This document shows positions 1,897-40,096 of a stretch of DNA of 64,000 bases, piece by piece; position 1 is the first letter of the stretch, and each line of letters starts with the position of its first letter. The notes beneath the pieces are model-generated. The model ran no database searches, was not told the DNA's origin, and worked only from the letters and a program-made list of their open reading frames with translations. The translations under genes were made by a program, and so were the position numbers. The DNA is taken from assembly GCA_038246735.1 (NCBI GenBank), contig JBBRVQ010000015.1, positions 9,200 through 73,199 of the forward strand, in the 5' to 3' direction. Origin of the DNA: Chitinophagales bacterium. GTDB taxonomy: Bacteria; Bacteroidota; Bacteroidia; Chitinophagales; Saprospiraceae.

Positions 1897-4800
1897 ATGA
1901 AAAATTTAATAATTATCTTCTTTTTAGTTGTTCCTAAAATTATATGGGCACAATCTGGTGTCAATTACGGAAATACCTTGACAAAAGAAACTGGTTATCT
2001 AATAAAAGCCGATGATAATTTTGTGTACACTGTAGGCGCAACATTTACCAATAATGTTGAATTTCCAATCATAACAAAATTCAATAAAGGGACTTATGTC
2101 AAAGTATGGGAAAAAAGACTTGACATAAGTGCTAGAATCAATGATTTAAGTTTTATTGGTAATGATAATACACCTGCAGAAATGTTTCTCGTAGGAAATA
2201 CTTTACCTTCTGGAAGTTCAATAAATAATAGCTCTCTGTTATTAAAACTTAACACAGCCAGTGGAAATTTAGATTGTTCAAAAATTTATAACCATTCCGG
2301 AGGTGAATCGTTTACAAGAATTATTCGTCATCCCAATCCTTCAAATAGTAGTTATCCATATTATATTCTTGGAGCAAAAGCTGTTACAGGTGCTGTAAAT
2401 TTTGATGTTACTCAAATGTTCTTGTTGAATGTAAGTGCCGATTGTAATGCATCAAATTTTATCAACTTTTCAAGACAATATGCTCAGGCAACTCCCATCG
2501 ATGATGAATTTCACAGAGGATTGATTCCGATTTCAGGAGGATCGTTACTACTTACCGGCAACAGAGTGGACGGTGGCTTGGGTTTAATAGTAGTAATAAA
2601 TGGTGCCGGTGTTGTTTCTGAAGCAAAATACAATTCTTGGGATATGGAGATCGAAGATGGTATTCAATTGGCTAATGGTAATTTTATATTTGTTGCTGAG
2701 GATTTTTCAGTTTCTCCTAGAGGAGCAATGATTTTTATGACTGATACTAAGTTTGAATTTCTTACTGGTAAGAGTTACCCCGAACTTAATGGGTTCAGAG
2801 ATGTGTTTTTAGATGGAAATTTTGTATATACAATTGGAAATAAAAAGGAAACGGGAAATGGTCTAAATGAATTTCCTGTTATAATGAAATTTAATATTAC
2901 AAATTCTCCTTCAGTCAGCATTACAGAAATTTTTTCCCGTAATGTCGGGCATATTGTTGGCACATCTTACACAGGTGGCAATCTTGATTTAAAAGCCGGT
3001 AAACTCCATTATATAGACAGTAGAACCACACTAAATAATATAGGAAATATTTACATTGCTGAATCGGACATCAATGATAACTTTGAATGTCAAGGAACAG
3101 TAAGTTTAATGCCTACAATCCCTGATTTTTCTGTCACAAATACTCCCGTAACTAGTTCCTCATACACGCTACCATTTGCGACTACACTTACTGCAGTTAA
3201 TGCGAGTTTTACAACGGTCCTATTTTGTCCGTTAACGGTACCTTGTACTGTAAATTTTGAATCCCAATTTGGCGAGTGTGGGAATGTAAATTTTACCTCC
3301 ACCACAAATCTTATATCACCTGTGACTTACAGCTGGACATTTGGTACTACGCCACAAAGTACTTCGGCATTAAAAAATCCAGTAAAAAAATATCTGGCCA
3401 ATGGAACGTACCAGGTATGTCTCACCGTAAGCAGTGGAAATTCTTCATGCAATATTTGTAAGAGTATTACCATTAGTAATGCAGATACTCAAGCCCCGGT
3501 GGTCACCTGCCAGTCCAATGTCCAGCTTACCAATAATCCGGGACAATGTTACGCAACTTATGCACCACAGGTCACAGTTACCGACAATTGTGATCCGATG
3601 CCTACTTGCAATTGTGTTATGACCGGGGTTACTTCCGGACCAATGATAAAAAACACATTAACGCAATTTAATGTAGGAATAACTACGGTAACTTGCACCG
3701 CAACTGATGCATCTGGAAATGTTTCTATACCATGTATCTTTACCGTCACTGTTTTTGATGCTCAGGCACCGAATATCGTGTGTCCTCCAAATGTCACCAT
3801 TTCATGTACACAAAATCAAGATGACTACATGATAACTGGTCAGGCAGCGGCCACTGACAATTGTCCAGGTGTAATCATCGCACACACAGATATCTTTTCA
3901 GGCAATACTTGTTCGGGCACTATCACTCGCACATGGCGTGCAACAGATGCATCAGGAGCTATTGTGACTTGTGTACAACTAATCAAAAAAGAAGATAAAG
4001 TGGCACCAGTGATGTCTTGTCCTGTAAATGTGACAATCAATTGTACCCAAAACCCTCTACCTACTCTTACAGGAACTGCATTGGCTGTAGATGATTGCCA
4101 ACCTGGTCCGATCGTACCCACCTTTAACGATGTGACTGTGGGCACAGGCTGTTCTTTGTATATTAATCGTACATGGACAGCCAATGATGGATGTGGAAAT
4201 ATTGCTACTTGTTTGCAAAAAATACACTTCAAAGATGATATTGCACCTGTAGTTACTTGTCCGCCTAACTTAACTATAAACTGCATTGGTAATGACTGGC
4301 AAACCGCTAATTACGGAAACGCAACAGCCACTGACAATTGTAGTACACCAACAATATTTAATTTTAATAGAACACTTACAGGAACCAATTGCAATGGAGA
4401 GATCAAAAGTTGGTGGAGAGCCATTGATGCCTGTGGCATCCAAAATGAATGCGTACAAACTATAACCATAATGGACAATGTAGCGCCTTTGATCACCTGT
4501 CCACCAAATATAACGGTATCCTGCAATGACAATACCAACACATCCAATACAGGAACAGCCACTGCCATTGACAACTGTAGTGGAAATAATGTTATTAGGT
4601 TTACGGATGCCTTACCACCACAAGGCTGCACCCAAATTATCGTTAGAACATGGACAGCCACTGATGCTTGTGGTAATGTTTCTACTTGCGTACAAACTAT
4701 AACATTAAAAGATGATGTGGCTCCTAGTATTTCTTGTCCTCCTAATCTTACACTAAATTGTGGCGCTAATACTAACCCTGCTGCTACCGGTAATCCCGTG

Positions 4801-7800
4801 ACATCTGATTTCTGTCAAACAAATCTCTCCGTTACTTTCATTGATGCTACTTCTGGAACACCATGTAATTTAGAAATCACCAGAACCTGGACGGTCAATG
4901 ATGGATGCGGCAATACAAGTACTTGTATTCAGATTATAACAGTAAATGATATATCAGCGCCAACGATTTTTTGTCCACCATCAAATTTAAACCCTATAGA
5001 ATGTGCAGCGAACCCAAACCTTGGAGTACTAACAAATGTAGCGGACAATTGTGGGGGTAAAATAGACCAATCCAACGTAGATGTGTTAAGTATCAATGGA
5101 TGCATTACTATCATTAATAGGACTTGGACGGTAACTGATCAGTGTGGCAACAGTGCCACCTGCGCTCAGACCATCACCATGCAGGATACAAAACCACCAG
5201 TGATTACCAATTGTGGAAAAAAATATACCATTCAAGGTATAAGAAATATAGATGGAAATTGTATCGCAAACGTAACTGTTATCTCACCCAATGTGACTGA
5301 TCTCTGTGACGGCACAGTAACATTGACCAATTCATTCAATAATACGTCGAATGCGTCTGGTACATATGCTATGGGGCAAACGATATTAATATGGACAGCC
5401 AAGGATGATTGCGGCTTGATGACTATGTGTCGGGATACGGTGTTAGTGTTGGAATGTCCGAATTGTTGTTGGGACGAAAATGCTTTTAATGCCGTTGCTG
5501 CCACGGAATTTAGTATTATCAGAGATGAATGCAGTATTCACATCAGCCATCCGGGGTTGACTCCTTGTCAAAGGGTGACTTATACTTGGTCTACTGGAGT
5601 AAGTTCCGGATATTTGACAGGTACTGCCAATGCTAGCCATGATTATGTAACATCAGGAGATTACACCATTTGTGCACTGATAGAAGAGGTCGATGTTAGT
5701 GGCATGGTATGTTTTTCTGCAGAAAAATGCTATGAGGTATGTGTGACTTGTGGTGATGGATGTATGGATGATAGGATAGTGTATGAGTGTCATGATTTTT
5801 CTCAAGTAACGAGATATCAAGGATCAAGAAATTTGACTAGATACGATTTAGTGCATAGTAACGGATTTATTTATGCTGCGAACTCAATAAAAATAGCACA
5901 AGGAGATACAGATGCTACCATTACAAAAATGGATGCAAACAATTGCATTGTTGAGACGCTCCTTATTTTTGGGGGTAGTGGTTTTGATGAAGCAAGTTCA
6001 ATAAAAGTAAATTCATCAGGAACAAAAATGATTGTTGCTGGAATATATGAAAGTTTTGACTTTGTAATATCAAGTTCCATAACTATGAGTGGATCTAATA
6101 TTACAATGTCAAGTATTGGTGGTCCTGGTATTTGGAATGGTTTTTTATTACAAATAGATATAGGCACAATGAAAGTTGATTGGGCATTTTCTTTAGGAGA
6201 TGGTTGGAGAGATAATATTAATGATATAGCTTTTGATAATAATGATAATATTTACATTGTTGGTAGTATTAGAGGTCAAGGTACTTCTCCAGTAGTAAAT
6301 TTTGCTCCATTAGGTATTTCAAATCAAGTACTTACACTTGGTTTAGCCAGTATGTATGCTACTGATGTTTACACAGGCTTTGTAGCAAAATATGATACTA
6401 ATGGTAGATTGATTATGTACGATGTCATTCAGCCGTATGGTATGTATAATCCACGGGATGGTAATGCAAGTATTGGTTGCAACTCTATCGATATTGAAGG
6501 TTCTAATATATATGTTGGGGGGTATTTTCAGGCCGGTATTCCATACGTAAATGGTCCATCTGCAATAAATTTACCAAGTCAAACCATTGTTATACAAGTT
6601 GATATAAATGATGTTAATAAAACAACAGGTTGGTCAAATTTCGTAATTAAATATGATCTTAATTTACAAAGAAATATTTCACAAGAAATATATTCTGGGC
6701 TTGGGGATGTCTATGTGGAAAGAAATCAATTAAGATCACTTAAATTATCTCCTACAGATATTTTCGTAGGAGGATCAAATTTTATCACAAAATTAGATAA
6801 AAACACACTTACTCAAGGTCTTTCTTACAACTCTGTCTATGAAATTAATGATATAAAAGTTTCAGGAGGTATGCTGTACACCATAGGTTCAACAACAAAA
6901 GGAAATCCAAATTTAGATTTTATAAATTCGTCGCCGCCTTACTCTGTTGGGATTGATATTCCGATAGGTATCTACGATTTAGACCTTAACCTTAAAAAGA
7001 ATATAATTTTGGGAGGCGGCAGAATTGAATTCGGATATGGTATTGAAGTTGTGGGTAATAACTTTTTCGTACAAGGAATGTCCCAAAGCTTAGATTTTAA
7101 ATATGATCCGCCAAATGGTGGAATAATATCAGCGGCACCTGCAAGTGATGATGCAAATATCTTCTTAGGCAAATACTCATGTGCCTGCGAGCCAAATACA
7201 GATTGTTGTGAAGATGTAAGTGCTTCTTTTTCTGGGCCTGAAAAATGTTGTAAATCATTAAATCTTGTAAATAATGCAGGATTTGACATCAGCCAAGTTA
7301 CGATAGAATTGATAACACCTGACTGGATACTTAACACTACCGGCGGAGCGTCAGGTTATATTTACAACCCTATAGCCAACGGTATAGAAATAACGCACAC
7401 ATCAGGTTCATTGCCTACAGGCACTTTAAACAGTCTTTTGGAAACATGTTTAACTGGAATTCCTGCTGCATCAACAAGCCAACAGTTCGTGGTCAATTGG
7501 TATGAAAATAGTACATCAGGAAACGAACTTGTGTCATGTTCTGACACGCTGACTATGGCATGTAATCCGGCACCACCACCATTACTTTGTGTGAAAGTAA
7601 ATGATATTGTTGTGGAATGTGATTCCGAAAATCCAAATGTCTATAATGTTACATTTACAGTGACCAACCTCACAACTAATATCCAAGGAACAACAGCTTA
7701 TTTATCTGGTCTTCCTTCAGACTACTTATTCAATTCTTGTTCAGGTGGTACTTTATCTGGAAGTATAGCCTTGTCTATTTTCCCAATTCTGGCTCCAGGT

Positions 7801-10800
7801 GCAACTTCATTGCCACTTTGTGTACAAATCTATAGTCTAAATCCTATTCTAAATTCTGAATCTATATGCTTCAACATAAATCTTAAAGGCTTGATAGGCA
7901 ATATTTTGGCTTGTTGCACAGAAGATGAAGAAATGTGTGTAAGTCTTGCTCCTTGTTGCACACCATGCGACGCTATAGATATTACTTCATCGCCTTTAGA
8001 ATCTGAAGACGATAGATGTTGTTACACTTTAAATGTTGAAAATAATTGTGAATACGCATATTTTACAAAAATAGAAGCTGAGATATTGACAAATGACGTA
8101 CACTTTGGGTATCTATCTACTGGAACAAATTGGAATAACTGCACTCCACCTACTTTACAAGAAGTTTGTATAAGCCCAAATGCAGGAACTGTAGGTGCTG
8201 GTACGCTCAACAATATACTTGAATTTTGCCTAACAAATATCAACAATGCGAGTCAAATACCACAAAATATAGACTTTACACTATACGCCATAGATAGTAC
8301 TGGTAATGAAGTGGTTGCTTGTAACAAAATGCTTCAATTCCAATGTGATACTATTCCCAATGATTCTTGTTTGATTGTTACAAATGCTATAGCATATTGT
8401 AATCCTGAAAATGAAAAGTACACAATTAGCGTTACTATTCAAAACAACTCAAGTCCTGACTTTTGTGCCAATGAAGTAGTGATTACACCCCTTCAATCAG
8501 GTGTCGCAATGCCGAGTGTCATTGTATTATCCGATTTTTTATGTTATGGTGAATCTACAACTATTAATTTCATGTTGAATACCAATCCTTTTCCAGACGC
8601 GGATGGCTTATTTCCGGTAATTTTTTCACTAAAAAACAGTTTGAGTGGATATTGCTGTCGTGGCGGAATTGCGCATATTGATACTCTAGTTTTACCTGAT
8701 TGTCCTTGTGCCACTTTATGCTGTGATTCGGATGAAAATGAAGACTTTGAAAACATAGCACTTGGCAATTTACCAAACAATCAAGTGGGTTGGGTCAACC
8801 ATCAAGGTAGTCCACAAGTTGTGAGCGGTGGTGCAAATGGCTCGGCTCAGTGTATAGGATTAAATGCTGGTATTAGAGGAGTTAGACCTGGAAGTGTATC
8901 TTATGGGATGTCAGGAGTCGTAGGACCTGAAATCATTTTTAAAGAAAATAAATTATACTGTATTACATTTTGGGCCAAATTATTTCCAGCTTTGAACTTA
9001 TACGGACGTTTGGGTGTGTATGCAGATGGTCAATTGATCGGTACAGTGGTTATACCATCTTCTAATACTCTATGGACTCAATATTCATTCAATTTCATAG
9101 CGCCTCCGCCTGGACAGGAAATATTGATTTTTACTAATGAATCTCCAGCTCCTGCAGATGCTGGTCCAAGTATTCTCCTTGATCAAGTATGTTTTGAAGA
9201 AATTGTACAGATTTTTGATGACACAACTCCTCCAGCCCTAACATGCCCGGCTAACTTGACTATCAATGACACGGACAATGACTGCATGGTCTCCTACACT
9301 ATTCCAAATATTACCGTCACCGATGCCAATGGCGTGGAGTCAGTCACTTGCTATCTGGACGGTACACCTGTTAACATTGGGTCAATCCATAACTTGAGCA
9401 ACACACTGGTTCATATGATCCTATTTGTAGCGGAAGATATTTGCGGTAATAAAGATTCTTGTAGTTATACGATTACAGTCAGATGTCAACAGTGTACTTG
9501 CCCAGCAACCACATCTTCCTTTACACTCAAACCAGGAAATAACGCTACAGTAAACCTTTCTTGCGGACAGCCTTTAACTTCCATTCCTACTATAGATTGT
9601 CCGACAGCTGGTATAAATATTACAGGTAATTTCGGCTGTGTGTTAAATTCACCCGTTGGTTCATGTCCTCCAAATGCTATTTCTTGGACTTTGGACAGAC
9701 CTGTACTTGGTGATTTGACTGGCACATTGACCGGTCCTGTATTTAATTGGAATCAAGTAAGCGCCAATCTAAGTGATGCTGGTCTATATATACTAACAAT
9801 TAAGACCTTGTGTTCCGCATCTGTTGATAGTTGTCTGTGTGTATTGAAGTGGAATCAGAGACCATGTCCACCAATCGATACCTGCTGTAAGGATGAAAGA
9901 GCATTTTACGTAAATACACAATATGCCGTACTGCCAGGTAAAGACGAAAAAGACTGTAAGGCATTTGTAAATATAGATTTGTTAAATCCATGCATTAAAA
10001 TTGATAAAATAGATTGGGGAAATGGGACATCTACAAATGGCCCATTACCAACAGGTCAAACATATTATAGCCCTACGCTTACTAACGGTAATTATACCAT
10101 TGTAGTTACATTTAGTGAATATAATACAAGTGGTGCAAAATGTTGGACAAATGATGTGGGTTTTTCTATTGACTTACAGTGCATCAATCCTTTATGTTCA
10201 TGTAAATATGTATATTTTAAGATTGAAAAAGATAACGTGGACTGTAATAATGCCCCTGTCAAAATTTCATGTCCAAATAAAACACCTGTTTTTATTTCAG
10301 GAAACTTAGGGTGTACACCAACTGGCTGTGGAACAGGTACTATACAATACAACATCAGAAATTCTTCCAATGTGTCTGTAACTTCAGGCACTTTTATGGC
10401 ACAATACTTTAATTTACAACTTTTAGCCGGCTGGTTTGATCCTTTAGGTGGGCAATACAGTATGGAATTAGTTACAATTTGTGGTAATAACACTTGCAGA
10501 TGTAAACTCAATTTTATTGTTCCTGCGTGTCCAAAAAGTTGTCTATGCGATGATAATTTTGCTGCAGAAGTAAGTCTTGGATTCAGCACTCAGCATTACA
10601 CTATTCCTGTATGCAGAAAGAAATTTACTCCAAAGAATTTATGTCCAAATGACAAGGTAAAATGGACTCTCAATGGGATTGCAATGCAATCTTCTACAGG
10701 TACGAATCCGGTGATCTTTAATATTTTGCCGGCAAATAGTACTGTTTGTATGATAGTCGAAAGGATGGAGTCTCCGAATAAAATTTGCAGAGATACATTC

Positions 10801-11613
10801 TGTCAGTTTTTCCAAACATGTAAGTACAAATTGACCCCAAGTCTGATTTGTCAATTTCCAAAAAATTCAACTTTTGATGGTGGCATAGATGGAAGTTTCA
10901 GCGATGGAGGAATGATGACTGAATGGACATTAAAGTCAGGAAGAGGAGTAGTCATCTCGGATGAAGGAATTGATTTCGAAAATGTACTTCTGATAGCTAA
11001 TAAAAACAATCCGTCTGATTTATATCAAAATTGTTGCTTAGATCCATTGGGGCAGAAAAAAATATTGAGTAATATACAATTGAATATTCAAAATTATGGA
11101 TACGAAAAATTGCAAGAAGGTAGCAAAATAAAAATATTTAGCGCCCCATCTGATGTGACAGTTACAGACTTAGATATCAAGGGTGAAATAGATATTTCAG
11201 CTATTTCTTTTGGGTGGAGTAATCTATCATTAGCACTTCAGGATGTAATATGGGAATACAATAATCTAGTAATACGGTTTGAAAATCCAAATGAAAATGA
11301 TGCGTTTATTCGAATCGATAATTTATGTTTGGATTTTGTAAGTGGAACCGCTGATGTTGATTCTAAAAACAATTTCTACATCTACCCTAACCCGACCACA
11401 GGTCACTTGACCATACAATTTACATCATCTACAGAACAAGATCTCACATTAAAAGTAATGGATGTTTTGGGCAGAGAAGTTAGTAGGAGTACCATCAATA
11501 TAGGTAGTACCAATTACAGCTTTAACATAGATGACTTTGCTGGTATTTATATCATTCAGCTGACGGATAAATCTGGTAATTCTTCTCAAAGGAAGGTGAT
11601 CAAAATAGAGTAA
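1897..11613 (+). CDS. giant (3238 aa) T9SS-secreted multidomain adhesin-like protein
   Basis: Uninterrupted 9.7-kb ORF with signal peptide MKNLIIIFFLVVPKIIWA|QSG. It has a PKD-like segment (VTYSWTFG...NGTYQVCLTVS) at about 3270-3480 and HYR/HYR-like modules at 3484-5455 plus one at about 9226-9480. SBBP-like beta-propeller repeats (NDIAFDNNDNIYIVGS) lie at about 5800-7100. The C-terminal sorting domain reads FYIYPNPTTGHLTIQF...GIYIIQLTDKSGNSSQRKVIKIE. Confidence 0.9.
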   Translation: MKNLIIIFFLVVPKIIWAQSGVNYGNTLTKETGYLIKADDNFVYTVGATFTNNVEFPIITKFNKGTYVKVWEKRLDISARINDLSFIGNDNTPAEMFLVGNTLPSGSSINNSSLLLKLNTASGNLDCSKIYNHSGGESFTRIIRHPNPSNSSYPYYILGAKAVTGAVNFDVTQMFLLNVSADCNASNFINFSRQYAQATPIDDEFHRGLIPISGGSLLLTGNRVDGGLGLIVVINGAGVVSEAKYNSWDMEIEDGIQLANGNFIFVAEDFSVSPRGAMIFMTDTKFEFLTGKSYPELNGFRDVFLDGNFVYTIGNKKETGNGLNEFPVIMKFNITNSPSVSITEIFSRNVGHIVGTSYTGGNLDLKAGKLHYIDSRTTLNNIGNIYIAESDINDNFECQGTVSLMPTIPDFSVTNTPVTSSSYTLPFATTLTAVNASFTTVLFCPLTVPCTVNFESQFGECGNVNFTSTTNLISPVTYSWTFGTTPQSTSALKNPVKKYLANGTYQVCLTVSSGNSSCNICKSITISNADTQAPVVTCQSNVQLTNNPGQCYATYAPQVTVTDNCDPMPTCNCVMTGVTSGPMIKNTLTQFNVGITTVTCTATDASGNVSIPCIFTVTVFDAQAPNIVCPPNVTISCTQNQDDYMITGQAAATDNCPGVIIAHTDIFSGNTCSGTITRTWRATDASGAIVTCVQLIKKEDKVAPVMSCPVNVTINCTQNPLPTLTGTALAVDDCQPGPIVPTFNDVTVGTGCSLYINRTWTANDGCGNIATCLQKIHFKDDIAPVVTCPPNLTINCIGNDWQTANYGNATATDNCSTPTIFNFNRTLTGTNCNGEIKSWWRAIDACGIQNECVQTITIMDNVAPLITCPPNITVSCNDNTNTSNTGTATAIDNCSGNNVIRFTDALPPQGCTQIIVRTWTATDACGNVSTCVQTITLKDDVAPSISCPPNLTLNCGANTNPAATGNPVTSDFCQTNLSVTFIDATSGTPCNLEITRTWTVNDGCGNTSTCIQIITVNDISAPTIFCPPSNLNPIECAANPNLGVLTNVADNCGGKIDQSNVDVLSINGCITIINRTWTVTDQCGNSATCAQTITMQDTKPPVITNCGKKYTIQGIRNIDGNCIANVTVISPNVTDLCDGTVTLTNSFNNTSNASGTYAMGQTILIWTAKDDCGLMTMCRDTVLVLECPNCCWDENAFNAVAATEFSIIRDECSIHISHPGLTPCQRVTYTWSTGVSSGYLTGTANASHDYVTSGDYTICALIEEVDVSGMVCFSAEKCYEVCVTCGDGCMDDRIVYECHDFSQVTRYQGSRNLTRYDLVHSNGFIYAANSIKIAQGDTDATITKMDANNCIVETLLIFGGSGFDEASSIKVNSSGTKMIVAGIYESFDFVISSSITMSGSNITMSSIGGPGIWNGFLLQIDIGTMKVDWAFSLGDGWRDNINDIAFDNNDNIYIVGSIRGQGTSPVVNFAPLGISNQVLTLGLASMYATDVYTGFVAKYDTNGRLIMYDVIQPYGMYNPRDGNASIGCNSIDIEGSNIYVGGYFQAGIPYVNGPSAINLPSQTIVIQVDINDVNKTTGWSNFVIKYDLNLQRNISQEIYSGLGDVYVERNQLRSLKLSPTDIFVGGSNFITKLDKNTLTQGLSYNSVYEINDIKVSGGMLYTIGSTTKGNPNLDFINSSPPYSVGIDIPIGIYDLDLNLKKNIILGGGRIEFGYGIEVVGNNFFVQGMSQSLDFKYDPPNGGIISAAPASDDANIFLGKYSCACEPNTDCCEDVSASFSGPEKCCKSLNLVNNAGFDISQVTIELITPDWILNTTGGASGYIYNPIANGIEITHTSGSLPTGTLNSLLETCLTGIPAASTSQQFVVNWYENSTSGNELVSCSDTLTMACNPAPPPLLCVKVNDIVVECDSENPNVYNVTFTVTNLTTNIQGTTAYLSGLPSDYLFNSCSGGTLSGSIALSIFPILAPGATSLPLCVQIYSLNPILNSESICFNINLKGLIGNILACCTEDEEMCVSLAPCCTPCDAIDITSSPLESEDDRCCYTLNVENNCEYAYFTKIEAEILTNDVHFGYLSTGTNWNNCTPPTLQEVCISPNAGTVGAGTLNNILEFCLTNINNASQIPQNIDFTLYAIDSTGNEVVACNKMLQFQCDTIPNDSCLIVTNAIAYCNPENEKYTISVTIQNNSSPDFCANEVVITPLQSGVAMPSVIVLSDFLCYGESTTINFMLNTNPFPDADGLFPVIFSLKNSLSGYCCRGGIAHIDTLVLPDCPCATLCCDSDENEDFENIALGNLPNNQVGWVNHQGSPQVVSGGANGSAQCIGLNAGIRGVRPGSVSYGMSGVVGPEIIFKENKLYCITFWAKLFPALNLYGRLGVYADGQLIGTVVIPSSNTLWTQYSFNFIAPPPGQEILIFTNESPAPADAGPSILLDQVCFEEIVQIFDDTTPPALTCPANLTINDTDNDCMVSYTIPNITVTDANGVESVTCYLDGTPVNIGSIHNLSNTLVHMILFVAEDICGNKDSCSYTITVRCQQCTCPATTSSFTLKPGNNATVNLSCGQPLTSIPTIDCPTAGINITGNFGCVLNSPVGSCPPNAISWTLDRPVLGDLTGTLTGPVFNWNQVSANLSDAGLYILTIKTLCSASVDSCLCVLKWNQRPCPPIDTCCKDERAFYVNTQYAVLPGKDEKDCKAFVNIDLLNPCIKIDKIDWGNGTSTNGPLPTGQTYYSPTLTNGNYTIVVTFSEYNTSGAKCWTNDVGFSIDLQCINPLCSCKYVYFKIEKDNVDCNNAPVKISCPNKTPVFISGNLGCTPTGCGTGTIQYNIRNSSNVSVTSGTFMAQYFNLQLLAGWFDPLGGQYSMELVTICGNNTCRCKLNFIVPACPKSCLCDDNFAAEVSLGFSTQHYTIPVCRKKFTPKNLCPNDKVKWTLNGIAMQSSTGTNPVIFNILPANSTVCMIVERMESPNKICRDTFCQFFQTCKYKLTPSLICQFPKNSTFDGGIDGSFSDGGMMTEWTLKSGRGVVISDEGIDFENVLLIANKNNPSDLYQNCCLDPLGQKKILSNIQLNIQNYGYEKLQEGSKIKIFSAPSDVTVTDLDIKGEIDISAISFGWSNLSLALQDVIWEYNNLVIRFENPNENDAFIRIDNLCLDFVSGTADVDSKNNFYIYPNPTTGHLTIQFTSSTEQDLTLKVMDVLGREVSRSTINIGSTNYSFNIDDFAGIYIIQLTDKSGNSSQRKVIKIE
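3484..5455 (+). repeat. eight tandem ~80-aa (about 240-nt period) HYR/HYR-like modules inside the giant CDS (protein-level repeat)
   Basis: Recurring pattern D-x-x-AP-x-(I/V)-x-CP(P)N(V/L)T(I/L)xC ... G.A.A.DNC ... (I/V)xRTW(T/R)A.D.CGN...C.Q.I...D. Units start near 3484, 3757, 3993, 4233, 4473, 4710, 4947 and 5187. Confidence 0.8.
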
Positions 11614-12484: not shown

Positions 12485-12787
12485 CCAATTGTTGTTTCTT
12501 CACGTAGCTCTAATTTTATAGTTTATGCTCAATATATTTATAATTGCGAAGATCAGAAATTAATGGGCTTTGTTAAGCCAAGCGTTGGTGCTTTGATGGG
12601 TGCAAGCTATTTTGGTGGTAAGGCAGGTGATAGAATCATAACTAAGAAATCACTCAAAACATTCAAGAAACAAATAGATGATAATTGATGATGATCAATT
12701 CTATAAATTATAATTTAAGATATTGTGGGAAAATGAAATTCCCATCCATATTGGTCACTTACTCATTCCAATAATGTTTCCTTCTAT

Positions 12788-12808
12788 TGGTGCAAGTTTG
12801 CAACTTGT
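12788..12808 (+). repeat. left copy of a 21-nt direct repeat TGG(T/C)GCAAGTTTGCAACTTGT
   Basis: 20/21 identical to 14140-14160. It contains the hairpin GCAAGTT-tgc-AACTTG(t). Confidence 0.7.
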
Positions 12809-12872
12809 GCCTCCTACTTACTAATAATTAAAGACATATCATCTCTATTATTTTCTCATAAAGAATTCCTTT

Positions 12873-13010
12873 TTACCCAGTATAATCTCTGGCGCTGCTA
12901 AAAATATAGTGTTCAACTTCTGCCACTATTCCCGCAGTTATATGATTATTATCCACAAAATAAATCTTCTGAAAGGTGTCGTATGCCTGATTGAAATGAT
13001 CCCTGAGGGA
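12873..13010 (-). pseudogene. C-terminal remnant (45 codons) of an IS200/IS605-like Y1 transposase / RAYT-like (COG1943-type) protein
   Basis: Minus-strand translation gives SLRDHFNQAYDTFQKIYFVDNNHITAGIVAEVEHYIFSSARDYTG*. This matches the family C-terminal motif Y-I-x-x-N-P-V-x-A-G-L-V-x4-D-Y/W-x-Y/F-S-S-A-x-D-Y. There is no start codon and no catalytic HUH or Tyr region upstream. Confidence 0.45.
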
Positions 13011-13504
13011 TCAGACTTTGTTTGATATAAATAAATGGTGAAAAACCGACCCTGGCAGGGTCGCACAAAAGAAAAAATGTGGTTTATTGATCTTGAATAG
13101 TCTGACTCCGCCAGAGTCAGACGAAACTCATATTTAAAATTTTCAACCATAATCAGACTTCTCTGAAGTCTGGGTCGTATGCCTGATTGAAATGATCCCT
13201 GAGGGATCAGACTTTGTTTGATGAATAAGGAGTTCAGGAATACCGCCCTTGGCAGGGTCGCACAAAGGATGAATGTGGTTTATTGATCTTGAATAGTATG
13301 ACTCCGCCAGAGTCAGACGAAACTCATATTTAAAATTTTCAACCATAGTCAGACTTCTCTGAAGTCTTGGTGTTATGCCTGATTGAAATGATCCCTGAGA
13401 GATCAGACTTTGTTTGATATAAATAAATGGTGAAAAACCGACCCTGGCAGGGTCGCACAAAGGAATGAATGTGGTTTATTGATCTTGAACAGTGTGACTC
13501 CGCC
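12962..13504. repeat. tandem array, about 2.75 copies of a 196-bp unit, each unit carrying four different GC-rich palindromic hairpins
   Basis: Unit starts (GTCGTATGCC / GTGTTATGCC) lie at 12978, 13174 and 13370. The hairpins per unit are TGATCCC-tga-GGGATCA, CGACCCTG-g-CAGGGTCG, TCTGACTC-cgcca-GAGTCAGA and CAGACTTC-tct-GAAGTCTG. Copy 2 has a diverged ~25-nt segment between hairpins 1 and 2. Confidence 0.85.
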
Positions 13505-13591
13505 TGCTGTGTATGATAATACTTTTAAAGAGCTTTACTTTGAAATTGAAACCAATCATTATCTAAAAATGTTAATAACAAAAAAATAAAG

Positions 13592-13831
13592 GTGCAAACA
13601 GCTGAACTAAAATCCAAACTCATCAATAAAATCATGTCCATAAATGATGAGCACTTGTTGATGGAAGCTAGTAGACTTATAAGTATGGAAGGTTCAGATG
13701 AGGAGGAAGTATTTATTTTTTCAGAAACACAGTCGGAAAAAATAGAAGCTGCACTACATCAAATTGAAAAGGGTGAATATTTGATTGCCGATGATGCCAA
13801 CAAGGAAATAGAGCAATGGCTAAAAAAATAA
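13592..13831 (+). CDS. putative addiction-module antitoxin (small acidic protein upstream of the ParE-like toxin)
   Basis: 79-aa ORF (GTG start) MQTAELKSKLINKIMSINDEHLL... Its stop overlaps the start of a RelE/ParE-like reading frame, the typical type II TA arrangement. Confidence 0.6.
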   Translation: MQTAELKSKLINKIMSINDEHLLMEASRLISMEGSDEEEVFIFSETQSEKIEAALHQIEKGEYLIADDANKEIEQWLKK

Positions 13832-14121
13832 TCTAGTCAACAAATGCCCAACTTGATAGAAAGGAAATTTTAGCTTATTGGATTAATAGAAACAAATCAA
13901 ATGTCTATAGCATAAAGTTAAACCACATCTTTGTTGAAACCTCACTACTACTGGCTATCCTTCCACTAACGGGTAGAAAGACTTCCATCGAAAATGTTCA
14001 TGTAAAAATAGTTAGAGATTATATGATGGCTTATAAAAGTACAGCCACAGAGCTACAGATTTTAGCTATTTTTGATACAAGACAAAATCCAGACAAATTG
14101 GATGAGATTATTAAGATGTAG
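13816..14121 (+). pseudogene. RelE/ParE-family toxin with premature TAG at codon 7
   Basis: ATG at 13816 overlaps the antitoxin stop. Translation is MAKKII*STNAQLDRKEILAYWINRNKSNVYSIKLNHIFVETSLLLAILPLTGRKTSIENVHVKIVRDYMMAYKSTATELQILAIFDTRQNPDKLDEIIKM*. TAG at 13834-13836 sits where family members have Trp (TGG). Confidence 0.7.
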
Positions 14122-14139
14122 AAAGTGGAATTCAGCAAA

Positions 14140-14160
14140 TGGCGCAAGTTTGCAACTTGT
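14140..14160 (+). repeat. right copy of the 21-nt direct repeat TGG(T/C)GCAAGTTTGCAACTTGT
   Basis: 20/21 identical to 12788-12808. It begins 19 nt after the ParE pseudogene stop. Confidence 0.7.
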
Positions 14161-14393
14161 AGGCTCGGGTTCAGAAAGTGAGCAACAGAGCATATTCAAA
14201 ATTAAAAAACCTATACAATACTTGACAAAATAACATTATTTTTTAATCTAAAACATCCATATTGTACTCAAATTTACAAATGTCACTCTGAAATATATGA
14301 AAAGCTAACAGTTAATTTCAGTTTTAAGTCTATTCCAATAGATTATACCTAATCTAACGATATAAAACATTTCCCAAGTATACAAAAAAATGT

Positions 14394-39711: not shown

Positions 39712-40096
39712 AATGGTCATCAAGTTAAATAAAAATATTAAATCAGAAATAAATGATAACAAATTTAAATTATTGAGACAGGTTAAGTAAGATTACAGCT
39801 TCAAATATAGTTTATAAAGTTATTTAGCTTCACCCAAATTATAGCTTGCAGACAAATGATGAAATTTTAAACATACTCCAATGAAGTCCCAAAGTTACAA
39901 TTTTATCGTAATTCAAATTTGCGATCAATTATCTTTCTATACTTATTTTATTGAAACAAAGTCTGGTTTTCTGAATACATAGACATATTCTAAAGAGGTA
40001 TAGCAGAATAAATACGAAAAAATGGTGTAATTGTTAATAATCCACCATTTATGTCGAATTTTATTTTCTAATGACAAATTATATCTTAAAAAGATT

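What the first reader, a model, noticed from the sequence alone, without database searches (positions are those of the whole stretch)
12962..13504. Tandem array of a 196-bp unit built from four distinct GC-rich palindromic hairpins
About 2.75 head-to-tail copies occur, with phase markers at 12978, 13174 and 13370. Each unit carries four different near-perfect palindromes spaced about 50-55 nt apart: TGATCCC/GGGATCA, CGACCCTG/CAGGGTCG, TCTGACTC/GAGTCAGA and CAGACTTC/GAAGTCTG. The pentamer GTCTG/CAGAC occurs about five times per unit, and the stems are far more GC-rich than the surrounding DNA.

The period is not a multiple of 3, so the long minus-strand ORFs across the array are probably artefacts. 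Copies 1 and 3 are nearly identical, but copy 2 carries a replaced ~25-nt segment between hairpins 1 and 2 that also breaks hairpin 2. Some stems are degraded without compensatory changes.

The layout resembles a BIME-like cluster of REP hairpins or a structured-RNA/protein-binding array. I do not recognise it as any named element.
Basis: seen in the sequence. Interest (0 to 1): 0.7.

Follow-up and report, generated by a model that had tools for sequence, protein, structure and literature searches.

The report
Hairpin-rich 196-bp tandem repeat, strain-variable
A real 196-bp non-coding tandem repeat carrying four GC-rich hairpins per unit sits in a decaying mobile-DNA scar of an uncultured Saprospiraceae bacterium; it looks like a cluster of REP-type hairpins, but it was found at only one locus of one lineage, so it is a modest curiosity and not a new system.

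Summary
Window 12978-13504 holds 2.7 head-to-tail copies of a 196-bp unit, each with four different 7-9-bp GC-rich hairpins. Eight of the 13 perfect hairpins of this kind in the 64-kb window lie in these 527 bp.

The array is non-coding and matches no Rfam family. It has no Bacteroidota-type promoter box and shows no compensatory changes across seven unit copies from four sources.

Every copy I found belongs to one Saprospiraceae lineage and, where the right flank is known, has the same right edge. Copy number varies from 0.8 to at least 2.7 units. Two unrelated left flanks occur. A related species (86% nucleotide identity) has neither the array nor the neighbouring toxin-antitoxin pair.

The left edge abuts a 37-codon C-terminal relic of a REP-associated tyrosine transposase (RAYT) gene. 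Intact homologues on other plasmids are flanked by clusters of similar hairpins. No dispersed copy was found in about 64 kb of this genome, in 185,579 representative genomes, or in phage, plasmid and viral collections.

Best reading: a locus-specific variable-number tandem repeat, amplified and contracted by unequal recombination. It is built from a hairpin module probably left by REP/RAYT-type mobile DNA, in an islet that is now decaying. Interest is low to moderate.

The parts
12978..13504 (.). Tandem array, 2.7 copies of a 196-bp unit (units 12978-13173, 13174-13369, and the partial unit 13370-13504, which ends inside hairpin 3).
   Evidence: TRF, period 196, score 866. Alignment of the copies. 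Repeat families D1 and D3.
12962..12977 (.). Left junction zone. Patchy microhomology (CTTCTGAA, GGTGT) links the RAYT relic to the hairpin-4/unit-start sequence. This is the probable site of the deletion that fused them.
   Evidence: Direct comparison of window 12950-12990 with the in-array junctions and with L001/L026. The flanks are otherwise not homologous to the unit.
12997..13013 (.). Hairpin 1, TGATCCC-TGA-GGGATCA, followed by GAC and a T-rich run. Other copies lie at 13193-13209 and at 13389-13405 (one mismatch).
   Evidence: Flagged as terminator-like on the + strand.
13047..13063 (.). Hairpin 2, CGACCC-TGGCA-GGGTCG. On the minus strand it is followed by GTTTTTC. Other copies lie at 13244-13260 (two mismatches, broken) and at 13439-13455.
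   Evidence: Flagged as terminator-like on the - strand.
13100..13122 (.). Hairpin 3, GTCTGACTC-CGCCA-GAGTCAGAC. The conserved core is TGACTC/GAGTCA. A second copy lies at 13296-13318 (one mismatch). Only the left half is present at about 13492-13504, where the array ends.
13154..13172 (.). Hairpin 4, CAGACTTC-TCT-GAAGTCTG. A second copy lies at 13350-13368 (terminal pair lost). In strains L001 and L026 this hairpin is the first element of the array, 13 nt after the stop codon of an unrelated gene.
13222..13248 (.). Diverged patch in unit 2. About 13 of 31 aligned positions differ from units 1 and 3. It spans the spacer between hairpins 1 and 2 and the left arm of hairpin 2.
   Evidence: Alignments. 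The patch is unique to this copy among the 7 copies compared.
12861..12971 (-). C-terminal relic (37 codons, with an in-frame stop) of a REP-associated tyrosine transposase (RAYT, Y1/HUH) gene. It is truncated at the array edge. No N-terminal part exists anywhere in the window.
   Evidence: tblastn with Bernardetia WP_338794277, E 7e-6 over the whole window. Five-sequence subfamily HMM, positions 140-177 (25 bits on the 12800-13560 translation) and 141-177 (17.6 bits on the whole window). The homologues match NF047646 at 105 bits.

Best explanation
The array is a lineage-restricted, single-locus, variable-number tandem repeat of non-coding DNA. Its 196-bp unit is a module of four unrelated GC-rich hairpins, whose G+C-rich stems stand out against this AT-rich genome.

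Shown:
- The array lies in a small islet (about 12485-14310) at a synteny breakpoint.
- The islet also holds a truncated RAYT gene and a RelE/ParE-type toxin-antitoxin pair whose toxin carries a nonsense codon.
- Copy number and left flank differ between near-identical strains.
- The copies diverge at similar rates in stems and spacers, with no compensation.

Inferred:
- Units are gained and lost by unequal homologous recombination or replication slippage between the 88-95% identical copies. Strain L001 is a hybrid of a first and a last unit, as such a crossover would give.
- The junction with the RAYT relic arose by a deletion at short microhomology.
- The hairpin module originated as REP-type or other mobile DNA associated with a Y1 transposase, and is no longer mobilised.
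- Any present effect is generic to the hairpins. Hairpin 1 with its T-run could act as a terminator or 3'-end stabiliser for the upstream gene, and hairpin 2 for antisense transcripts. A sequence-specific function is not indicated.
For: - Real, dense hairpins.
- Non-coding: period 196 is not a multiple of 3, and the ORFs match no family. Only one similar 'protein' exists among 5.8 billion clusters and 1.84 billion representatives, and it is another copy of the array (L026).
- Single lineage and locus: the same right edge occurs in L001, L002, L046 and L047. The left flank is either the RAYT relic (window, L030) or an unrelated T9SS-sorted gene (L001 and L026).
- Copy number is 0.8 units (L001), at least 1.5 (L046), at least 2 (L026) and 2.7 (window).
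- L001's unit matches L026's first unit on its left part and the window's last unit on its right part.
- A related species (86% identity) has dapB directly next to the PpiC gene. It has no toxin-antitoxin pair and no array, and synteny ends at window position about 14310.
- No selection on structure: 0 of 30 pairs show a compensatory change, and 9 of 150 cells are unpaired through one-sided changes. Pairwise diversity is 5.5% in stems and 7.0% in spacers.
- No Rfam family and no TAnnTTTG promoter box in the array.
- Mobile-DNA context: the RAYT relic, the toxin with TAG at codon 7, and hairpin clusters flanking intact homologues of the RAYT.
Against: - Four strong, mutually unrelated hairpins per 196 bp, and a strand-specific hexamer, are not explained by neutral duplication alone. 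TCAGAC occurs 7 times in the array, all on the + strand, against 10 times in the other 63.5 kb. This suggests the module once had, or still has, a specific ligand.
- The diverged patch in unit 2 could be a conversion tract from another, unseen copy. That would mean the family is not confined to this locus.
- Only about 64 kb of this genome could be examined, and the exact-pattern scans tolerate no divergence in the stems, so dispersal is not excluded.
- The loops show no variation across copies.
Confidence: 0.55

Rival explanations
1. It is a genuine REP/BIME-type family. On this reading the hairpins are substrates of a RAYT (Y1/HUH) transposase and are scattered through the rest of the genome. 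This locus would be one cluster, amplified by transposase action or recombination next to the former RAYT gene.
For: - A RAYT relic abuts the array, and its family passes NF047646.
- Intact homologues are flanked by clusters of several different 7-10-bp GC-rich hairpins with 3-4-nt loops, present on both sides in the Salinivibrio (L034) and Bernardetia (L035) plasmid loci and upstream only in L003 and L033.
- Such hairpins are otherwise rare in this genome.
- TCAGAC sits at the foot of three hairpins on one strand, like a REP 'tag'.
- The conversion-like patch in unit 2 hints at other copies.
- Tandem reiteration of REP clusters is documented (PMC3733652).
Against: - There is no other copy of any hairpin in the window or in about 8 kb of extra contigs.
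- There is no inverted partner and no alternation of orientation.
- The four hairpins are all different and about 50 nt apart.
- No unpaired GTAG or CGTC head of the described kind is present. Hairpin 3 has only an overlapping, paired CGTC on the minus strand.
- Searches of 185,579 genomes, JGI metagenome contigs, and viral, phage and plasmid sets gave only chance hits or no match at all.
- The RAYT is truncated at the junction, and strains L001 and L026 have an unrelated gene there, so the adjacency is probably secondary.
- The hairpin 3' of the RAYT relic is a different sequence, GCAAGTTTGCAACTTGT.
Confidence: 0.2
2. It is a tandem array of genes for a roughly 190-nt structured small RNA, with four stem-loops and hairpin 2 as the terminator on the minus strand. 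Alternatively it is a structured 3' UTR of the upstream gene.
For: - The folds are strongly non-random on both strands.
- Hairpin 2 followed by GTTTTTC on the minus strand, and hairpin 1 followed by a T-run on the plus strand, are terminator-like: 6 such sites were found against 0.9 expected.
- The one variant in hairpin 1 (G to A) would keep a G-U pair in a minus-strand RNA.
- The loops are invariant.
Against: - There is no Rfam match even at E up to 10.
- No Bacteroidota -33/-7 promoter motif lies in the array.
- There are no compensatory changes, and stems are no more conserved than spacers.
- A strain keeps only a partial unit that lacks half of hairpin 3 and the spacer.
- The array is absent from the related species.
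- The array ends in the middle of hairpin 3.
Confidence: 0.1
3. It is a relic of a plasmid or phage maintenance region integrated with the toxin-antitoxin pair. Examples would be a single-strand replication origin or a centromere-like repeat whose palindromes bind a partner protein.
For: - The array lies 88 bp upstream of a RelE/ParE-type toxin-antitoxin pair.
- The islet is lineage-specific.
- The 17-bp perfect palindromes resemble dimer-binding sites, and the stems (60% G+C) are far richer in G+C than the rest of the unit and the window.
Against: - No replication, partition or mobilisation gene lies nearby.
- Four different palindromes, not one reiterated site.
- No similarity to any phage or plasmid record or viral contig.
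Confidence: 0.06

Closest known systems
REP clusters / BIMEs of RAYT-carrying bacteria (E. coli BIMEs, Pseudomonas REPINs, the GTAG- and CGTC-tagged REP superfamilies)
   Same: Short GC-rich extragenic hairpins with 5-13-bp stems and small loops. They lie next to a RAYT-family gene (here a relic), are clustered, are reiterated in tandem together with flanking DNA, and vary between strains. Hairpins at gene ends can act as terminators or mRNA stabilisers.
   Different: No dispersal was seen: there are 0 copies outside the array in 63.5 kb. There are no inverted or alternating pairs. The unit holds four unrelated hairpins instead of one reiterated sequence, with about 50-nt spacers. There is no unpaired GTAG or CGTC head. 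The neighbouring RAYT is a truncated fragment whose adjacency seems to come from a deletion.
Intergenic variable-number tandem repeats (for example MIRU-VNTR loci of mycobacteria, or boxB reiteration in pneumococcal BOX elements)
   Same: Head-to-tail non-coding units of tens to hundreds of bp between genes. Copy number differs between close strains, presumably through slippage or unequal crossover. Function is often nil or modulatory.
   Different: MIRU and BOX units are multi-locus families. This unit is known at one locus only, is longer, and is unusually rich in perfect hairpins.
Hairpin clusters flanking RAYT homologues on Bernardetia and Salinivibrio plasmids
   Same: The transposase subfamily is the same as that of the relic at 12861-12971. 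The hairpin geometry is the same (7-10-bp stems, 3-4-nt loops), and several distinct hairpin sequences occur per cluster. Small motifs are shared: TAGTCTG with hairpin 3, and the CTGAGG apex with hairpin 1.
   Different: In L034 and L035 the same hairpins recur on both sides of an intact gene, and in both orientations. Here no hairpin recurs outside the tandem copies, and the only hairpin 3' of the relic is unrelated. The sequence resemblances are too short to be tested.

Membership tests
REP / BIME (RAYT-associated repetitive extragenic palindromes) | Many dispersed extragenic copies of the same palindrome in the genome (typically tens to hundreds or more). | tested here: not met
   Each hairpin, allowing up to 3 mismatches, occurs only inside the array in the 64-kb window. 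None occurs in other contigs of this lineage or in related-species loci. The hairpin-1 pattern gave one chance hit in 185,579 genomes. The rest of this genome could not be searched.
REP / BIME (RAYT-associated repetitive extragenic palindromes) | Copies arranged as inverted pairs (REPIN) or in alternating orientation (BIME). | tested here: not met
   All copies are head-to-tail in one orientation. No hairpin sequence recurs in reverse orientation.
REP / BIME (RAYT-associated repetitive extragenic palindromes) | The palindromes flank a RAYT gene. | tested here: inconclusive
   A RAYT-family C-terminal relic abuts the array. It is truncated at the junction. Its 3' flank carries a different hairpin. 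Strains L001 and L026 have an unrelated gene on that side.
REP / BIME (RAYT-associated repetitive extragenic palindromes) | A conserved unpaired head tetranucleotide (GTAG or CGTC) at one end of the hairpin. | tested here: not met
   Read from the sequence against the definitions in PMC3733652. No GTAG is present. CGTC occurs only on the minus strand of hairpin 3, where GTC is base-paired. Instead TCAGAC recurs at three hairpin feet on the + strand.
Known structured RNA families (Rfam 15) | A match to a covariance model at or near its gathering score. | tested here: not met
   The only hit in the window at gathering threshold is tRNA-Ala. In 12500-14000 the best hit has E = 1.2 and scores 26 bits against a 60-bit cut-off.
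Structured RNA in general | Compensatory base changes that maintain the helices. | tested here: not met
   0 of 30 pairs show a change on both sides among 7 copies, and departures are unpaired cells. The copies are only 5-9% diverged, so power is low.
Variable-number tandem repeat (intergenic minisatellite) | Head-to-tail non-coding units at a fixed locus, with copy number differing between close strains. | tested here: met
   The same right flank occurs with 0.8, at least 1.5 and 2.7 units in L001, L046 and the window. L026 has at least 2 units, but its right flank is unknown. The contigs are 99.7% identical outside the array.
Type III toxin-antitoxin RNA repeats (ToxI-like) | Short (about 34-45 nt) tandem repeats directly upstream of an endoribonuclease toxin gene (ToxN/AbiE-like). 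| tested here: not met
   The unit is 196 nt. The downstream genes are a 79-aa protein antitoxin candidate and a RelE/ParE-like pseudogene.

The most novel reading that the evidence does not exclude
The 196-bp unit is a composite four-hairpin substrate, tagged on one strand by TCAGAC, of a Bacteroidota lineage of RAYT (Y1/HUH) transposases. Further diverged copies would lie elsewhere in the genome, with the unit-2 patch as a conversion tract from one of them. The array would be a site where the enzyme, or recombination between its substrates, drives rearrangements such as the two alternative left flanks. That would be a REP/RAYT system with a new repeat architecture in a phylum where such systems are hardly described.
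Probability: 0.1. Interest if true: 0.55.

Novelty: new member of a known kind. Interest (0 to 1): 0.3.

Why it matters
If it is only a decaying variable-number tandem repeat, it matters little. It would serve as a strain marker for this Saprospiraceae lineage, and it explains why metagenome contigs break here.

It would matter more if the hairpin module proved to be a RAYT substrate. REP/RAYT biology is known almost entirely from Proteobacteria. A four-hairpin composite unit with a strand-specific hexamer tag would extend the known repeat architectures, and it would link a domesticated Y1 transposase to genome rearrangement in Bacteroidota.

Tried and rejected
1. The unit as decayed RAYT coding sequence. 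By eye, the minus-strand frames resembled Bernardetia RAYT residues 30-65, including the HUH motif. A five-sequence subfamily HMM scores only 12861-12971. All array frames score below 0 bits. Rejected.

2. Flanks as older, diverged copies of the unit. Local alignments of either flank against two units do not exceed shuffles. Rejected.

3. The unit as built from about 49- or 98-nt sub-repeats. No circular offset or half-against-half alignment exceeds shuffles. Rejected.

4. Exact-pattern scans returned chance hits only:
- Genome contigs with hairpin 1: one hit, in a Burkholderiales MAG;
- Metagenome contigs with a 19-mer: three hits, all in coding regions;
- Viral contigs with hairpins 1, 3 and 4.

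5. blastn of the array against plasmids and phages found nothing.

6. Using the spurious array ORFs as protein probes returned only P0001, which is another copy of the array. The search also returned two unrelated FG-GAP-like repeat proteins.

7. A protein search with the 60-aa RAYT relic found no candidate, so that search was wasted.

8. A search with the L001 T9SS protein did not return that protein itself. Its closest relative (59% identity, L031) has no related element downstream. An exact look-up of the T9SS fragments found that neither is in the collection.

9. An apparent inverted partial copy at 39934-39965 is a chance match in AT-rich intergenic DNA.

10. Integron attC sites, a diversity-generating retroelement, iterons and type III toxin-antitoxin repeats were considered from their known anatomy and set aside. 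No integrase, reverse transcriptase or ToxN gene is nearby, and unit size and hairpin form do not fit.

Full report
**Observation.** Tandem Repeats Finder reports one strong array in the window: 12978-13504, period 196, 2.7 copies, 88% matches, score 866. The three copies align in register.
- Unit 1 carries four perfect palindromes at 12997-13013, 13047-13063, 13100-13122 and 13154-13172.
- Each palindrome, with up to three mismatches allowed, occurs only inside the array in the 64-kb window. Shuffles give zero expected matches.
- Perfect hairpins with a stem of at least 7 bp, a loop of 3-7 nt and at least 3 G/C per arm number 13 in the whole window. Eight of them lie in these 527 bp, and one of the others is an arm of tRNA-Ala.
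- A unit folds far better than shuffles on either strand, with z = -4.1 and -4.9.
- Stem GC is 60%, against 27% for the rest of the unit and 35% for the window.
- The period is not a multiple of three. The 70- and 105-aa minus-strand ORFs match no Pfam family.
- Unit 2 carries a patch in which about 13 of 31 positions differ, and this breaks hairpin 2.

The only refinement is that 12962-12977 is patchy microhomology and not clear repeat.

**What lies around it.**
- *Left flank.* On the minus strand, 12861-12971 encodes 37 residues (QKIYFVDNNHITAGIVAEVEHYIFSSARDYTG*KGIL) that match the C-terminus of a 'transposase' on a Bernardetia plasmid.
  - A profile built from five homologues hits only this stretch in the whole window, at profile positions 140-177 of 183.
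  - The homologues pass NCBIfam NF047646, 'REP-associated tyrosine transposase', at 105 bits against a cut-off of 80. Their best solved relative is E. coli TnpA-REP, 4ER8.
  - So a RAYT pseudogene, lacking its first 140 or so codons, is cut off at the array edge.
- *Right flank.* A 79-aa ORF lies at 13592-13831. It is followed by a RelE/ParE-like reading frame at 13816-14121, with full-length but sub-threshold matches to TIGR02385 and PF05016. That frame has TAG at codon 7 where relatives, from my recollection, have Trp.
- *Flanking hairpin.* An exact 17-mer hairpin, GCAAGTTTGCAACTTGT, occurs twice, at 12792 and 14144. The two copies bracket the relic, the array and the toxin-antitoxin pair.

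**Distribution.** The organism belongs to an uncultured Saprospiraceae lineage.
- *Right flank.* Contigs 99.7-100% identical to the window on the right side (L001, L002), and contigs carrying at least 90%-identical antitoxin variants (L046, L047), all show the same right edge of the array.
- *Left flank.* Two forms exist.
  - The window and L030 have the RAYT relic.
  - L001 (ENA) and L026 (JGI) have an unrelated T9SS-sorted protein gene. Its stop codon lies 13 nt before hairpin 4.
- *Copy number.* It is 0.8 units in L001, at least 1.5 in L046, at least 2 in L026 and 2.7 here.
- *L001 as a crossover product.* L001's single partial unit equals L026's first unit on its left and the window's last unit on its right. 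This is what an unequal crossover between first and last units would produce.
- *Related species.* At 86% nucleotide identity, synteny runs only from window position about 14310 rightwards. There dapB sits next to the PpiC gene, with no toxin-antitoxin pair and no array.
- *Wider searches.* No true match was found in any of the following:
  - phage or plasmid records;
  - viral contigs, chance hairpin hits only;
  - 185,579 species-representative genomes, one chance hit;
  - JGI metagenome contigs, three chance hits in coding DNA.
- *Protein probes.* Using the spurious ORFs as probes against 5.8 billion clusters and 1.84 billion representatives found only L026's copy.

**Is it an RNA, or under selection?**
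- No Rfam family matches, even at E up to 10.
- No Bacteroidota -33/-7 promoter motif falls in the array.
- Across seven unit copies from four sources, none of the 30 base pairs shows a change on both sides. Nine of 150 cells are unpaired through one-sided changes.
- Pairwise diversity is 5.5% in stems and 7.0% in spacers outside the unit-2 patch. Only the 16 loop columns are invariant.
- The outer pairs of hairpins 3 and 4 are lost in most copies.
- Hairpin 1 (plus strand) and hairpin 2 (minus strand) are followed by T-runs and score as terminator-like. Six such sites were found against 0.9 expected.

The copies are too similar for a powerful covariation test. What variation exists looks like neutral decay.

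**Is it REP/BIME-like?**
- *For.*
  - The RAYT relic is adjacent.
  - Intact homologues on plasmids are flanked by clusters of several different 7-10-bp GC-rich hairpins with 3-4-nt loops. In two of the loci (L034, L035) these lie on both sides and in both orientations.
  - TCAGAC occurs seven times in the array, always on the + strand and at the foot of hairpins 1, 3 and 4. It occurs ten times in the other 63.5 kb.
- *Against.*
  - No dispersal was seen.
  - No inverted partners were found.
  - The four hairpins are unrelated to each other, and there is no sub-period.
  - No unpaired GTAG or CGTC head is present.
  - The RAYT adjacency appears to be the product of a deletion, since the gene is truncated, no N-terminal part exists in the window, and other strains have another gene there.

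REP membership is therefore not met on the testable criteria, although the anatomy resembles that of a REP cluster.

**Ideas tested and dropped.**
- By eye, the unit's minus-strand frames resembled the RAYT N-terminal region, including the HUH motif. The subfamily profile gives negative scores for every array frame.
- Neither flank is detectably homologous to the unit.

**Conclusion.** The best-supported reading is a single-locus, strain-variable tandem repeat in a lineage-specific islet of decaying mobile DNA at a synteny breakpoint.
- It expands and contracts by unequal recombination or slippage.
- Its hairpin module is probably a relic of REP/RAYT-type DNA. This origin is inferred, not shown.
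- Any current effect is probably generic, such as termination or mRNA 3'-end protection.

A true dispersed REP family (about 0.2), an sRNA array (about 0.1) and a plasmid-type maintenance relic (about 0.06) remain possible. The deciding test is a search of the complete genome, which could not be done here.

Noticed in passing
window 12861-12971 (minus strand): A C-terminal relic (37 codons, with an in-frame stop after ...ARDYTG) of a REP-associated tyrosine transposase (RAYT) gene. No other part of such a gene exists in the 64-kb window.
   Followed up: yes
window 12792-12808 and 14144-14160: An exact 17-mer hairpin, GCAAGTTTGCAACTTGT, occurs twice in the same orientation (about 21 nt are similar when flanks are included). 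The copies bracket the RAYT relic, the array and the toxin-antitoxin pair. One copy lies about 20 nt past the end of the RAYT relic. It may be this genome's real REP-like element or the ends of an islet. It is absent from the related-species loci.
   Followed up: partly
window 13592-13831 and 13816-14121: A toxin-antitoxin pair. The 79-aa antitoxin-like ORF is intact. The overlapping RelE/ParE-like toxin frame (TIGR02385 E 8e-4; PF05016 E 0.011; both full-length but below cut-off) has TAG at codon 7, so the toxin looks inactivated. Gene callers in other strains find only its last 32 codons.
   Followed up: partly
window about 14310; loci L037-L042: A synteny breakpoint. In a related Saprospiraceae species (86% nucleotide identity), dapB, dnaG, cmk and queA lie directly upstream of the PpiC-type isomerase gene. 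In the window everything left of about 14310 is unrelated. In L036 a second breakpoint falls at tRNA-Ala (window 18608).
   Followed up: partly
L001 1-1285 and L026 (reverse strand) 1409-395: Strains from ENA ERZ27246970 and JGI 3300032420 carry a different gene left of the array. It is a T9SS C-terminal-sorted protein with a DUF1349-like region and has no counterpart in the window. This is a strain-level rearrangement with its breakpoint in the first unit of the array.
   Followed up: partly
window 13011-13016, 13117-13122, 13153-13158 and the equivalent positions in units 2 and 3: The hexamer TCAGAC recurs three times per unit, always on the + strand, at the foot of hairpins 1, 3 and 4. That is 7 in 527 bp against 10 in the other 63.5 kb. 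Its pairing partners (GTCTG) are mutated in most copies while TCAGAC is kept.
   Followed up: partly
window 1897-11613: A 3238-aa T9SS cargo protein with HYR, PKD and Por_Secre_tail domains. It has internal DNA repeats of about 237-240 bp at roughly 3840-5414.
   Followed up: no
L034 (Salinivibrio plasmid) and L035, L033, L003 (Bernardetia plasmids): RAYT homologues flanked by REP-like hairpin clusters. In L034, TTCCCACGCAGGAGCGTGGGAA lies on both sides. In L035 two hairpin families occur in both orientations on both sides. In L003 and L033, GTAGTCTG(T/C)GACTAC hairpins lie upstream. These are textbook REP/RAYT layouts in Bacteroidota plasmids.
   Followed up: partly
L031 7514-7601: Downstream of the closest homologue of the L001 T9SS gene (59% identity, MAG GCA_964267875.1) there is an unrelated 41-bp tandem repeat of 2.1 copies, at the contig end.
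   Followed up: no
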